A stretch of DNA of 64,000 nt from Eledone cirrhosa (Eukaryota). Positions within the stretch are counted from its first letter, which is position 1; the number at the start of each line of letters is the position of its first letter. Positions 2,273-20,331 of the stretch are shown here, piece by piece. Both the position numbers and the translations under genes were made by a program. A model generated the notes under the pieces. The model was not told the origin of the DNA. It saw only the letters and a program-made list of their open reading frames with translations, and did not search any database. The stretch covers positions 132,308,001-132,372,000 of the forward strand of contig OZ024741.1 in NCBI GenBank assembly GCA_964016885.1, read 5' to 3'.

Positions 2273-2810
2273 TAAATGTTCGGTGAATCCATACGTACAT
2301 ATATATATATATGTGTGCATGTATGTATATATATATACATACTACTGTACGTCTGTATACATATATGTATGTACGTATAAATACTTATATTAAGTAACAG
2401 CCGTACTAAGAGTGGGAAATGAGATTTCGTTTCATTTTTTCCGTTTATCGTTTTCGGTGCACCCGGCCGCTTAACCCACTCGATATGCAAATTGGGCTAC
2501 TCAGCCGTTAATATGCATAAGGAAAGTATATACTTTCAGACGTTCAATCATCTGGCAGGAAGGTATACGTTGCTGACGATAGCTAATGGGCTTGAAACTA
2601 GTACAGCGTTCCTTTGTCAGTGTTGAACAAACGAGCAACGATGGCTGCTAGACACTACGGCTTAATACGGGATGTTTGTTTACAAACACACCGAGCATTG
2701 TAATAAATGTTCGGTGAATCCATACGTACATATATATATGTGTGCATGTATGTATATATACATACTACTGTACGTCTGTATACATATATGTATGTACGTA
2801 TACATACTTA
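2273..2810 (+). mobile_element. ~431-bp monomer plus ~110-bp terminal redundancy, hammerhead-bearing (retrozyme-like family A)
   Basis: taaatgttcggtgaatccatacgtac... starts at 2273 and again at 2704. Flanked by (TA)n on both sides. Further copies at 17860-18965. Confidence 0.8.
2567..2609 (+). ncRNA. Minimal hammerhead ribozyme, type I (family A)
   Basis: acgttg-CTGACGA(2573-2579)-t-agct-aatg-ggct-t-GAAAC-ta-GTA-cagcgt. Stem III is reduced to the palindrome actagt. Confidence 0.8.
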
Positions 2811-2862
2811 TATATATATATATATATATATATATATATATATATATATATATATATATATA

Positions 2863-2948
2863 TATCAAGGAAACAAGAAACAAACAAACAAACAAATACG
2901 ACTTTGTTAAAGCATCCTCTTGTTTGTTTGTTTCTTGTTTCCTTGATA
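2863..2948. repeat. Short fold-back between (TA)n tracts
   Basis: Arms atcaaggaaacaagaaacaaacaaac / gtttgtttgtttcttgtttccttgat. The loop is the reverse complement of ~3262-3291. Confidence 0.8.
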
Positions 2949-3164
2949 TATATATATATCATATATATATATATATATATATATATATATATATATATAT
3001 ATATATATATATATATATATATATATATATATATATATATATATATATATATATATATATATATATAAGTATTGAAGTTTCCGTTGAAAATTGAAAAAGT
3101 CATAGGAGTGAAGAGTGCTCTATGTAAGTACCAGAGCAAAATTTAATGTATAATAAACAATACA

Positions 3165-3250
3165 ATATAATTACCTCGTTACCAGAGGTTTCCCGAATAA
3201 GTCGAATACGAAAAACGTCCTCATTCGTTCGTCGGACAAGGCAATTATAT
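3165..3250 (-). ncRNA. Hammerhead ribozyme variant (CCGACGA core)
   Basis: Minus strand: atataattgccttgt-CCGACGA-a-cgaatgag...cttattcg-g-GAAAC-ctctg-GTA-acgaggtaattatat. Stem I is 15 bp with G-U pairs. Confidence 0.7.
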
Positions 3251-3289
3251 ATATACAAACCAACAAGAGGATGCTTTAACAAAGTCGTA

Positions 3290-4850
3290 TTAGTTTCAGA
3301 AAGAGGGTGAGTTATACAGTCAACGTATTGGGCATGTGCCCTTCGTCGGGAAAAACAGCGTTCAGGGTGTAGAAAAAGTATAATACATAAGGAAAAAGAA
3401 AAGAAAACATGTTTTAAATAAGATTAGAAATAAGGAGGAAAAATAGTGTTGTGTGGGAAAGTGGTCCGGTGTGTGGGTGTGGGGGATTGAGGTGAGAGTT
3501 GCAGACGTGTAGTTGGTGGTTGTGTGTAGGTGGGACACATATTATGATACATATGTGGGTGTTAGGTGAGTTGATGGTGGAAGTGTGTGTGCATGTGTGT
3601 GTCTGAATGTGTGTACATATGTGACCATGCGCGCACACGCATGAATATGCACAGAAACACACACATGTATATGTGTACATACACATACAAGCGTATCCCT
3701 CTCTACGCACTCTTGCATTTGTGAGCGCATGTTTATATTTGTATGTGCGTTTGGCTGGGATGTGGGGTTATTGGTGTGAATTTTGTGGTTGCATAAAGGC
3801 AAACACGCTTAGCTACTAAGTTTACAAATGGAGTAAATATTTAATAATGGCGTGTGAACCATTGCATAATTTAGGAGGCAGTTAAGTAGCAGTGTTTTAC
3901 GTAGGAGGGGTATTCTGTTGCTCAATAATTTACAGACGGATGGTGAGGACGAAAATGTTGGTGCAACAACTGTAAAGGATTCTAATATACTACCGCTTGT
4001 AAACTCTATTATATTTTGTTAATTATAAACTCTGTGAAGATAATATGTGGAATTGATCGGTTTTTGCCTAAACGGTGAAGAGGTGTGGCCGCCGTTTGTG
4101 GGACATGCCTTTCCGCAGCTCGTCTTTTATTACTGAGCAGCAGTCCTGGCTTAAGATGAGACTGAGACTGAGCGCCTGGCATTTGGAATGTTATCAGGCT
4201 CAAACTGCCTTCCACTAGGCGGGCAATGTGGACAGTGAAACTTCCACTCTCGAGTTCTATAGAGGATTAGTGTGGGCAAGTGCGACGACGCACTCGGAGA
4301 GGCTCTGGGCGTCGACGAAGTTGAACTGACCTGTCTGTTCCGGAGGACTTTCGAGCCGGAGACTATGGATAACTTCCAGAAATCCCTCGCTAGGTTCGAG
4401 ATAAATCTAAAGGGATGGAAGTTCTGTCAGACCGACCTGCCTGAAATACACGCAGAGCGACGAAAACATTTTGCACGCACTTGTCCAGTGTCCGTGCATT
4501 ACTGACTTGTGGAGTTATGTCGAACAGCAGTTGTCGTGTGCAGGACGAATCCAGCTACCGACCGAGTCCATAACGAAGATCACCCCAGCTCCCTCTTTTG
4601 GCCGGGAAGGGCGTGCAGTTTTCCTCTGTCTGGTGGCGGTAGTGAAAGAGGTTGTGTGGTGGACCAGGTTGAAAGGATTGAAGACAGACACTTTTCTCTT
4701 CGGCCAATCCTCATCAACCTTTTCAAGTTTCACTTGGAAAGGAAAGTGAGGGTGAAGAGAGAAGTGCTTTTGCTAAAAGGGGCGAGAATGACTTATGTGA
4801 ATGGGCCTAGTCTGAGCATACGCCTACTGTGATAGCTCTCATTAAACCTG
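3290..4850 (-). mobile_element. Possible degenerate Penelope-like element remnant
   Basis: GC-richer coding-like block at 4050-4830 without an intact ORF, a CA-rich segment, and a decayed hammerhead-like motif at ~3320-3355 (CCGACGA-agggca-ca-tgccc-aatac-gtt on the minus strand). Weak. Confidence 0.3.
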
Positions 4851-17015: not shown

Positions 17016-17060
17016 AGTCATAGTTCTTTCGTCACACACTCTGTGACCTCTTCAGTGACT
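17016..17060 (-). ncRNA. Minimal hammerhead ribozyme, type I
   Basis: Minus strand: agtca-CTGAAGA-g-gtcaca-gagtg-tgtgac-GAAA-gaac-TA-tgact, running directly into (TA)n. Confidence 0.8.
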
Positions 17061-18067
17061 GGGGATTTCTTTCTTCGTTTCTGTGCCTTTCCTTTCTTCT
17101 ATCCTACGCCATTTTGTATATATATATATATATATATATATATATATATATATATATATATATATATATATATATATATATATATATATATGTATATATG
17201 TATATATATATATATATATATATATATATATATGTATATATATTATATATATGTATATATGTATATATATATATATATATATATATATATATATATATAT
17301 ATATATATGTATATATATATATATATATGTATATATATATATATATGTATATATATATATATATATATATATATATATATATATATATATATATATATAT
17401 ATATATGTATATATATATATATATATATATATATATATATATATATATATATATATATATATATATATATATATATATATGTATATATATTATATATATG
17501 TATATATGTATATATATATATATATATATATGTATATATATATATATATATGTATATATACATATATATATATATATATATATATATATATATATATATA
17601 TATATATATATATATATATTGTGAAAGCGTATGGCTAAGTGGTTAGAGAATTGGATTCACAATCTTGAGGTTGTGTGTTCAATTCCTGGACCGGGCGATG
17701 CGTTATCTCCTTGAACAAGACACTTTATTTCATGTTGCTCCTTCAACCTGGAGTTGCGACCGATAGATAGTACTAGCCACTGGAAAGACCGACGAAAACA
17801 TTGTTTACTTGGTCCGATTTGACGAAAGTCGATCGATATATATATATCGATATATATATATATGTATGTATACGTACATACATATATGTATACAGACGTT
17901 CAGTATTATGTATATATACATACATGCACACATATATATATATGTGTACGTATGGATTTACCGAACATTTATTATAATGCTCGGTGTGTTTGTAAACAAA
18001 CATCCCGAATTAAGCCGTACAGTGTTTAGCAACCATCGTTGCCCTTTTGTTCAACACTGACAAAGGA

Positions 18068-18110
18068 ACGTTGTACTAATTTCAAGCTTATTAGCTATCG
18101 TCAGCACCGT
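18068..18110 (-). ncRNA. Family A hammerhead (C>T in stem III)
   Basis: Minus strand: acggtg-CTGACGA-t-agct-aata-agct-t-GAAAT-ta-GTA-caacgt. Confidence 0.7.
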
Positions 18111-18644
18111 ATACCTTCCTGCCAGATGATTGAACGTCTGAAAGTATATACTTTCCTTATGCATATTAACGGCTGGGCAGCCTAATTTGCATATCGAGTG
18201 AGTTAATCGGCCGGGTGCATGAAAAAATGAAACGAAATTTCATTTCTCACTTTTAGTCCGGCTGTTACTTAAATATAAGTATGTATACGTACATACACAT
18301 ATGTATACAGACGTTCAGTAGTATGTTTATATATATACATACATACACACACACATATATATATATATATATATATATATATATATATATATATATATAT
18401 ATATATATGTACGTATGGATTTACCGAACATTTATTATAATGCTCGGTGTGTTTGTAAACAAACATCCCGAATTAAGCCGTACAGTGTTTAGCAACCATC
18501 GTTGCTCTTTTGTTCAACACTGACAAAGGAACCGGTGCGCCCGGCCGATTAACTCACTCGATATGCAAATTAGGCTGCTCAACCGTTAATATGTATAAGG
18601 AAAGTATATACTTTCAGACGTTCAATCATCTGGCAGGAAGGTAT

Positions 18645-18687
18645 ACGGTGCTGACGATAACTAATAAGCTTGAAACTAGTACATCGT
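18645..18687 (+). ncRNA. Family A hammerhead
   Basis: acggtg-CTGACGA-taactaataagctt-GAAAC-ta-GTA-catcgt. Confidence 0.75.
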
Positions 18688-20331
18688 TCCTTTGTCAGTG
18701 TTGAACAAAAGAGCAACGATGGTTGCTAAACACTGTACGGCTTAATTCGGGATGTTTGTTTACAAACACACCGAGCATTATAATAAATGTTAGGTAAATC
18801 CATACGTACATATATATATGTGTGCATGTATATATATATATATATATATATATATATACACATACTACTGTACGTCTGTATACATATATGTGTGTACGTA
18901 TATATACTTATATTTAAATAACAGCCGTACTAAGAGTGAGAAATGAAATTTCGTTTATTTTTTCCGATATATATATATATATATATATATATATATATAT
19001 ATATATATATATATACATATATATATATATATATATATATATATATATATATATATATATATATATATATATATATATATATATACACACACACACACTT
19101 ATATCCTGTGAAGGAGGCCATTTTCTTTTTATATAACAGGCTGAATGTGTTGGGGAGTATAAACCAACGAAATTTAAGCACCTGTATATGTCACTATTGT
19201 AACTCTTTATATATATATATATATATATATATATATATATTTATTTATATAAATATATATATATACATATGTGCATGTGTGTATGTGTATATGTATATAT
19301 ATTTCAGACAAACGTATTATGTAAAGAGCATGAATATGCCTGTGTATGTATGTATGTATATATATTGTTCATGTGTAATTATTCTATAAATTTTCATCAA
19401 TAGAAAGAGTGCCAGTTTCTAACATAGACACAAGACTCTTTCATTCAAATTTAGACATCAACTAGGTAAATACATATGTGTGTGTGTTTGTTTGTGTGTG
19501 TTTGTGTGTGTTTGTGTGTGTTTGTGTGTCTGTGTGTTTGTATGTATGTGTGTGTTTGTGTGTATGCAGTTATGGATGTTATTGTACGAGTGGATCTGCA
19601 TGTTTTGAGTTATATGTGTACACGTGCAGATGTTTCTGTGTCTATATATGTGTATGTGTAGTTATTACATGTATGTATGTTTGCATCTCCTGGGTCAAAA
19701 TTCAAATTGGCTGAATGAGTTCTCTTTAAAATGGCGCCTCAAATAAACACGGCCCATCCTTGACTTCCTGGGAACCAACCCAATGTACCAGTTGAACACA
19801 AACCTCATAGGCCCTATCTTTCTCTCTATTCCTCGCTATCTCCCTCACTCTCCCTTTCTCTCTCTCTCATTCTGTTATATATGTATATATATACCTATCT
19901 ATCTGTTTATCTCTCTCATTCTCTCTCTCTTGGATATATACATACACATATATATACCCTCTTACTGCTATCTCAAGCGTTAACCTAATATATTCCTTCC
20001 ATATACTGTACCGATTGTGTTGATATTTCTGTTTACCTTTTACACACAGATATATAAATATATATATATATATATATATATTTATATATTTATATATTTA
20101 TATATATATATATATATATATATATATATATATATATATATATATATATATATATATATTTATATATTTATATATTTATATATATATATATATATATATA
20201 TATATATATATATATATATATATATATATATATATATATATATATATATATATATATATAAGTACGTTATTCCGGGTTGAATCGGAGGTAACCACAGTAA
20301 GTAAGGTACTCAATACATTGCAGAGTATAAA

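What the first reader, a model, noticed from the sequence alone, without database searches (positions are those of the whole stretch)
2273..18965. Family A: ~431-nt unit found as 1.25-mer, 1.6-mer and inverted monomer with different start points
Seen: copies at 2273-2810 (+), 17860-18532 (-) and 18533-18965 (+) begin and end at different positions of the same cyclic unit. Each full unit has one 43-nt hammerhead with palindromic stem III (actagt). Stem differences between copies mostly preserve pairing (acgttg/cagcgt versus acggtg/catcgt). The unit includes its own TA-rich segment, which varies in length. Established: minimal hammerheads with palindromic stem III can cleave as dimers in tandem transcripts. 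This is the best retrozyme candidate in the window.
Basis: partly seen in the sequence, partly recalled or inferred. Interest (0 to 1): 0.72.

Follow-up and report, generated by a model that had tools for sequence, protein, structure and literature searches.

The report
Hammerhead repeat with Penelope insertion footprint
A 431-base non-coding repeat carrying a predicted self-cutting RNA motif sits at thousands of places in this genome, mostly ending at one of two fixed points next to TA microsatellites and pairing one of each end in the intact back-to-back copies examined, a footprint that likely comes from Penelope-type retrotransposon enzymes copying its RNA from both cut DNA ends.

Summary
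The repeat is real: a 431-nt non-coding unit with a type I hammerhead, 11,466 exact 22-mer hits genome-wide. 5' ends are scattered, but 3' ends are fixed: 181 of 225 arms in 133 loci end at site A (u118) or site B (u176, 58 nt further), mostly against (TA)n. All 40 back-to-back pairs with two intact ends (38 without duplicates) join one A and one B. The window thus holds two insertions, not three. A 470-nt sister family (9 of 9) and an autonomous Neptune Penelope-like element (8 clear pairs) follow the same rule, the Penelope 'tail' signature. Both arms usually share one haplotype. No ORF is attached in 133 loci and no partner element was identified. The hammerhead is extended, not minimal; 5' ends do not pile at its cut; expression is untested. 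Verdict: a non-LTR retrozyme likely mobilised by Penelope enzymes priming both cut ends, probably on a circle. The class and Penelope link are published; the scan noted this footprint before on other DNA.

The parts
2273..2811 (+). Single-arm insertion, 1.28 units, 3' end at site A; 5' end joined to host (TA)25 where the unit itself reads ATAA
2225..2274 (.). Host (TA)25 target, left side
2808..2865 (.). Host (TA)n target, right side, abutting 3' end A
2283..2390 (+). TA-rich segment folding as a long hairpin; site A (u118, 2390) lies at its 3' base
2391..2448 (+). 58-nt 'tail' between sites A and B, with a hairpin ending just before site B (u176, 2448)
   Evidence: loose ends at 2390/2391 and 2448 in run X2
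2485..2492 (+). ATGCAAAT octamer, kept in the 60%-identical sister family; candidate internal promoter element (inference)
2554..2618 (+). Extended type I hammerhead (core 2567-2609, predicted cut after 2603): 6-bp stem I plus internal loop and outer helix, 3-bp stem II on a U.U base pair, palindromic ACUAGU stem III
17858..18532 (-). A-arm of the two-armed insertion, u336 to u118, ends in short (TA)n
18068..18110 (-). Hammerhead core, damaged (ATTAGT; G.A in stem I)
18185..18192 (-). Octamer of the A-arm
18533..18966 (+). B-arm of the same insertion, u183 to u171 (tail-bearing end), followed by (TA)n from 18967
18563..18570 (+). Octamer of the B-arm
18645..18687 (+). Hammerhead core with one stem II pair broken
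18967..19085 (.). Host (TA)n abutting 3' end B

Best explanation
This is a high-copy non-coding hammerhead repeat (non-LTR retrozyme) with two fixed 3' ends next to (TA)n, likely inserted by a Penelope-like (probably Neptune-type) reverse transcriptase-endonuclease that would cut both strands of a TA microsatellite and start copying the RNA at site B from one cut end and at site A from the other. Shown: unit, fixed ends, scattered 5' ends, one-A-one-B pairing, shared haplotype of the two arms, no attached ORF, same footprint in an autonomous Neptune. Inferred: arrays are transcribed (the conserved octamer may be part of an internal promoter); hammerheads would cut slowly, likely as dimers, releasing monomers that would be ligated to circles; the enzyme would roll round the circle to give 0.1 to over 7 units; the two cDNAs would meet 5'-to-5' by end joining, or a lone cDNA would join the far side of the target. 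The 2273 copy is the lone-arm outcome, 17858-18966 the two-arm outcome. Odds: Penelope-mobilised non-autonomous element about 0.9; two-site priming from both cut ends about 0.75; circular template about 0.55.
For: Ends: in the position-ordered, unbiased set (51 loci, 89 arms) 34 end at u113-124 and 40 at u163-177, windows covering 6% of the unit; all sets 89 A, 92 B, 44 other of 225; (TA)n follows 67 of 89 A and 72 of 92 B ends; 3,891 exact B-end/(TA) junctions genome-wide. Pairs: 63 divergent pairs, 40 AB, 0 AA, 0 BB, 23 with a disrupted end; 1 convergent. Arm lengths are unrelated (A 2.65/B 1.16; A 2.35/B 7.48), which excludes fold-back copying of one cDNA. Sister family 9 of 9 AB. Autonomous Neptune (938-aa frame, RVT_1 + GIY-YIG; two pLTRs) has two ends 64-65 nt apart at (TA)n and 8 clear AB pairs. 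Frangieh 2024 showed a Penelope enzyme starts at two internal RNA sites that bound the tail and extends both strands. One template: discordance at polymorphic sites 175/2673 within arms, 94/1144 between A and B arms, 35941/97180 between loci; rare variants shared 0.35%, 0.32%, 0.02% (nearest neighbour 0.07%); sister 0.95%, 0.96%, 2.4%. Young multi-unit arms are near-identical (L130 0-3 differences per unit) while long old arrays differ 11-34 per unit, so multimers look regenerated from one unit. Hammerhead: 66 of 77 copies keep the core, 77 of 77 keep a pair at 298/334 across five pair types; 5 pairs with two-sided change, 1 of 500 shuffles; sister hits Rfam HH9, E 4.8e-6.
Against: No partner found: the unit's ends show no similarity beyond TA runs to four Neptune families, and no other family with its hammerhead appeared. 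No RNA evidence either way. No 5' pile-up at the cut (1 of 85; 6 of 222 against 4.1 expected) and 64 of 89 arms cross a cut site, which fits circles but equally uncut multimers; Frangieh found cleavage unnecessary in vitro and no strand difference in start site. The window hammerhead has no Rfam hit and a U.U at the base of stem II in 77 of 77 copies, so activity may be low. Three of 50 pairs have high arm discordance (L209 18/28, L173 8/36, L156 6/19). One possible tail-tail Neptune pair 3.5 kb apart and one unclear pair. Later tandem duplication (L098, alternating dimer) or gene conversion can also equalise units. Many lone arms lack (TA)n at the 5' side.
Confidence: 0.72

Rival explanations
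1. Same Penelope two-site priming, but the template is an uncut linear multimer transcribed from a young homogeneous array; the hammerhead is weak or a relic and no circle is needed.
For: No 5' peak at the cut; 64 of 89 arms cross it; U.U base of stem II; uncut RNA is the main substrate of the anole enzyme; only 1 of 9 Xenopus dimers cut in vitro; arrays of 6-8 units exist.
Against: Copying linear arrays can only shorten them and should inherit their unit differences; the long arrays seen are heterogeneous while young multi-unit arms share private variants. The hammerhead fold is kept with compensatory changes across families 60% alike.
Confidence: 0.25
2. The unit is the pLTR or 3' end of a rare autonomous Penelope-like element and all copies are its 5'-truncated remains.
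For: Footprint is identical to that of autonomous Neptune ends; only about 133 of several thousand loci were read; Li 2026 derives retrozymes from pLTRs.
Against: Units join head to tail seamlessly for up to 7.5 repeats with no ORF (longest stop-free frame 90 codons); 11 of 133 loci have a PLE protein hit and the 5 upstream on the same strand are each separated by their own 3' end and (TA)n or other DNA.
Confidence: 0.07
3. Two separate RNA molecules, or template jumps between sibling RNAs, supply the arms and repeats; homogeneity only reflects one dominant source at a time.
For: L209 joins arms of different subfamilies and L124 switches within an arm; the anole enzyme is modelled as a dimer.
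Against: Rare variants are shared between opposite arms about 4.5 times more often than with the nearest other locus.
Confidence: 0.15
4. A DNA-level satellite or foldback element spread by recombination or rolling-circle DNA replication.
For: Tandem arrays and one later dimer duplication exist.
Against: Strand-polar fixed 3' ends, scattered 5' ends, 5'-to-5' pairs 63 against 1 convergent, and the same pattern in an RT-coding element.
Confidence: 0.03

Closest known systems
Metazoan non-LTR retrozymes (Cervera and de la Pena 2020, PMC7229834; Li, Clavereau and Pollet 2026, 10.64898/2026.07.22.740005)
   Same: Non-coding tandem units of a few hundred nt, one type I hammerhead each, thousands of copies, highly paired predicted circle (z -7.6), coexisting PLEs; palindromic stem III as in axolotl HHR_Amex1 and U.U at the base of stem II as in HHR_Amex2.
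   Different: 431 nt (above the 170-400 nt of the 2020 paper, inside the 51-972 range of the 2026 one); inserts at (TA)n; two fixed 3' ends and one-A-one-B inverted pairs are not described in the parts read; expression and cleavage not shown here; no pLTR homologue found.
Insertion units of EN+ Penelope-like elements: Neptune, Penelope/Poseidon, Naiad (Craig 2021, 10.1101/2021.04.23.441226; Frangieh 2024, PMC11167929)
   Same: 5' truncation, partial tandems, inverted 5'-truncated copy, tail usually at one end only, microsatellite targets, hammerhead in the repeat.
   Different: No ORF; tail 58 nt rather than 30-40; extended rather than minimal hammerhead; strict A/B asymmetry, whereas the in vitro anole enzyme showed no strand difference in start site.
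Non-autonomous Chlamys elements such as MRC1 (Craig 2021, passage)
   Same: [quoted passage not shown]
   Different: Those resemble their autonomous partner at the 3' end and their clade lacks hammerheads; here a hammerhead is kept and no partner homology was found.

Membership tests
non-LTR retrozyme | Short tandem repeat units, each with a type I hammerhead | tested here: met
   17 of 89 arms cross two or more cut sites
non-LTR retrozyme | No coding capacity, no attached ORF, no LTR/PBS/PPT layout | tested here: met
   PBS/PPT not searched as such, but no LTR-flanked interior occurs in any mapped locus
non-LTR retrozyme | Hammerhead fold conserved | tested here: met
   covariation in 11 distinct rows (partly driven by the sister family; relatedness can inflate it); Rfam HH9 for the sister below gathering score, none for the window copy
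non-LTR retrozyme | Self-cleavage | not testable with these tools
   indirect test (5' ends at the cut) gave no peak
non-LTR retrozyme | Expressed as linear and circular monomer RNA | not testable with these tools
   no RNA holder listed; only contigs could be laid
EN+ Penelope-like element (autonomous) | ORF with RT and GIY-YIG | tested here: not met
PLE-type insertion | Two fixed 3' ends bounding a tail, tail on one end only | tested here: met
   40 of 40 intact pairs AB
PLE-type insertion | 5' truncation, partial tandems, inverted 5'-truncated copy, microsatellite target | tested here: met
pLTR derivative of a known local PLE | Sequence homology to an autonomous pLTR | tested here: not met
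   50 GIY-YIG loci and four family ends; 10,596 candidates exist, so the sample is small
minimal PLE hammerhead | Lacks the extended stem I and loop contacts | tested here: not met
   outer helix 100% paired in 11 rows, internal loop and 6-nt loop 2 kept

The most novel reading that the evidence does not exclude
One circular ribozyme RNA is copied from both ends of a double-strand cut by a Penelope enzyme dimer whose two subunits are committed to different start sites 58 nt apart; the strict one-A-one-B rule would then be the general mechanism behind Penelope inverted insertions and tails, and this element a self-standing RNA lineage (own internal promoter, ribozyme, two priming hairpins) with no sequence debt to its helper.
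Probability: 0.35. Interest if true: 0.75.

Novelty: new member of a known kind. Interest (0 to 1): 0.5.

Why it matters
Which enzyme spreads animal retrozymes has been argued from co-occurrence and pLTR homology. Here the insertion scars themselves carry the Penelope tail signature, in thousands of short copies where both arms can be read whole. The one-A-one-B rule and the shared haplotype constrain the unsolved second half of Penelope transposition, and a 431-nt non-coding donor with two mapped start sites is a ready substrate for testing it, including whether a circle is the template.

Tried and rejected
Rfam scan of the whole window listed only TA-hairpin miRNA noise in the 150 of 211 rows shown; targeted scan of 2400-2700 found no hammerhead family. 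Expression: no RNA holder listed; the one possibly-RNA run covered only the TA-rich part; neither is evidence. Run X2 shows the same two ends but may be the source sample. Partner search: 30 + 20 GIY-YIG loci; unit copies beside them (L055, L141, L142) are separate insertions; two relaxed hammerhead patterns returned unit variants, the sister family and a few unrelated hits among the first 100 of 270 and of 196. An apparent likeness of site B to a Neptune end did not beat TA-only alignments. A seeming cluster of 5' ends near the cut in the first 30 loci vanished in the unbiased set. B-arm lengths near whole units are suggestive but biased by the queries; not claimed. Fold-back copying rejected on arm lengths. 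Free permutation of both ends rejected. Search for the newt satellite 2 promoter paper did not list it, so the octamer parallel is recalled. Look-up of earlier findings by sequence was blank. Rows left out before counts: L001 (window copy), L009, L030, L127, L187 (duplicates), L151, L153, L163, L164, L174, L189 (not this family), loci repeating a cluster already held, and one of 53 clusters among the first 100 matches that was not fetched.
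Full report
Observation. The three stretches exist as described, within a few bases. Taking 2273-2703 as the unit (u1-u431), the arms run u1 to u118 (+, 1.28 units), u336 to u118 (-, 1.50) and u183 to u171 (+, 0.97); the last two meet 5'-to-5' at 18532/18533 without gap. Outside the TA-rich segment they differ from the first copy at 21 of 299 and 22 of 294 sites but from each other at 10 of 291. Hammerhead cores lie at 2567-2609, 18645-18687 and 18110-18068; only the first is undamaged. 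The host genome is 3.0 Gb and TA-rich; I did not test its taxon.

Family. An exact 22-mer of the unit occurs 11,466 times (control 0); its first 100 matches fall in 53 clusters, so roughly 6,000 loci is a lower-bound estimate. I mapped 133 loci: 27 best hits, 51 taken in positional order, 53 anchored on hammerhead variants and the two window loci; dropped rows are listed under Tried and rejected. The unit read as a circle has no frame over 90 codons and folds at -134 kcal/mol (z -7.6 against 60 shuffles; z -4.5 without the TA-rich part).

The ends. 5' ends scatter. 3' ends do not: of 225 arms, 89 end at u113-124 (site A), 92 at u163-177 (site B) and 44 elsewhere; in the unbiased set 34, 40 and 15 of 89. 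(TA)n follows 67 of 89 A ends and 72 of 92 B ends by a strict test, and the exact B/(TA) junction occurs 3,891 times. Each site lies 3' of a predicted hairpin and reads TTAT into the TA run. Of 63 divergent pairs, 40 have both ends intact and all 40 join A with B (38 after removing two duplicated pairs in L102; chance 0.5^38); 23 have a disrupted end; one convergent neighbour pair was seen. Several apparently lone A arms carry a short inverted B arm. Junctions range from overlaps of 1-6 nt to small insertions. Arm lengths are unrelated, so one arm is not a fold-back copy of the other.

The same rule elsewhere in the genome. A sister family (470 nt, 60% identical over the whole unit, score 187 against a shuffle maximum of -21) has ends about 70 nt apart and 9 of 9 intact pairs AB among 16 loci. 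The genome is rich in GIY-YIG elements with the Neptune zinc-finger-like motif (motif per Craig 2021). One family has a 938-aa RT plus GIY-YIG frame between two pLTRs, 11,632 exact end motifs, two ends 64-65 nt apart at (TA)n, and among 23 loci 8 clear AB pairs, one unclear and one possible BB pair 3.5 kb apart. Craig 2021 (passages) describes the inverted 5'-truncated copy and a tail usually on one end only; Frangieh 2024 (parts 1-2 of 4) shows that the tail is the stretch between two internal RT start sites, that both strands are cut and extended, that cleavage by the hammerhead is not needed in vitro, and no strand difference in start site.

One template. At sites polymorphic in the family, adjacent units of an arm disagree at 175 of 2673 (6.5%), A and B arms at 94 of 1144 (8.2%), random loci at 37%; background within arms is 5.2%. 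Rare variants are shared at 0.35%, 0.32%, 0.02%, and 0.07% with the nearest other locus. The sister family gives 0.95%, 0.96% and 2.4% divergence. Exceptions exist (L209, L173, L124). Young long arms are near-identical unit to unit while old long arrays are heterogeneous. Since copying a linear array can only shorten it and should carry over its differences, I infer that multimers are regenerated from one unit, most simply on a circle. Later duplication (L098) and gene conversion weaken this, and the uncut-multimer rival stays open.

The ribozyme. Stem I extends past an internal loop into an outer helix, loop 2 has 6 nt, stem III is the palindrome ACUAGU. In 11 distinct rows 92.7% of cells pair and 5 pairs change on both sides (1 of 500 shuffles; relatedness can inflate this). 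The sister motif matches Rfam HH9 over the full model (31.3 bits, E 4.8e-6, below the gathering score of 52); the window motif matches nothing. In 77 unbiased copies 66 keep the core, 52 keep core, stems and palindrome, and all have U.U at the base of stem II. Axolotl ribozymes with these two weak features cut poorly alone and well as dimers (PMC7229834, parts 2-4 of 6), so slow dimer cleavage is likely but untested. 5' ends do not gather at the cut (1 of 85, 1.6 expected) and 64 of 89 arms cross it. An ATGCAAAT octamer is kept in both families about 110 nt before the cut; its role in the newt satellite 2 promoter is recalled, not found.

Partner. None identified. No unit is joined to an ORF in 133 loci; 11 have a PLE fragment nearby, and the five upstream on the same strand are cut off by their own end and (TA)n or other DNA. 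The unit's ends do not resemble those of four Neptune families. Neptune is the likeliest helper by footprint only; other TA-targeting PLE clades are not excluded.

Comparison and novelty. It works like a non-autonomous PLE and meets every sequence criterion of a non-LTR retrozyme; cleavage and circular RNA could not be tested. The class is published, PLEs were proposed as helpers in 2020 and supported by homology in a 2026 preprint (parts 1-3 of 5). Searches of the held library listed no paper mapping two fixed ends or an A/B rule in a retrozyme; the library lacks most subscription papers and supplements were not seen. After my reading was set, a look-up showed that this scan had noted the same footprint on other repeats in this and other genomes; these are unchecked notes, not support. 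Verdict: new member of a known kind with a mechanistically useful footprint; interest 0.5.

Noticed in passing
L163/L164 (G000:C1:163.575 Mb) and L241-L260: Younger sister retrozyme family, 470-nt unit, copies 96-99% alike, canonical G-C at the base of stem II; probably the better substrate for cleavage tests.
   Followed up: partly
L131:1417-1458 and 6396-6437; L137, L148, L149: Several abundant Neptune families carry a hammerhead-like motif with an altered core (TTGAAAA or TTGATAA for CTGANGA, palindrome ACCGGT); one motif occurs 11,632 times exactly. Activity unknown.
   Followed up: partly
window 17015-17061 (-): Another hammerhead motif, matching the 3' end of a Poseidon-like PLE seen in L128.
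   Followed up: partly
window 6309-6718 and 7360-7777: Broken remnants of a Neptune-type RT (tblastn).
   Followed up: no
window 2866-2945: Short fold-back between TA runs directly beside the first copy, likely the inverted end pair of another element; part of it recurs inverted near 3263-3292.
   Followed up: no
window 1666-1710 and 2186-2230: 45-nt direct repeat closing a ~520-nt stretch that ends in the (TA)25 target, probably a partial tandem of another PLE-type element; its end recurs in L011.
   Followed up: no
window 41602-64000: 54-nt satellite, about 415 copies, 93% matches.
   Followed up: no
window 12259-13905: 101-149-nt tandem array whose unit contains a variable (TA)n run.
   Followed up: no
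window 10145-11039: Broken frames with helicase-like motifs recalling a Helitron PIF1 helicase (recalled; Pfam gave no match).
   Followed up: partly
L098: 4.6-unit arm alternating two unit types exactly (15 differences, then 0): a later dimer duplication or a dimeric template.
   Followed up: partly
L209: Inverted pair whose arms belong to different subfamilies (18 of 28 polymorphic sites differ): two templates in one insertion.
   Followed up: no
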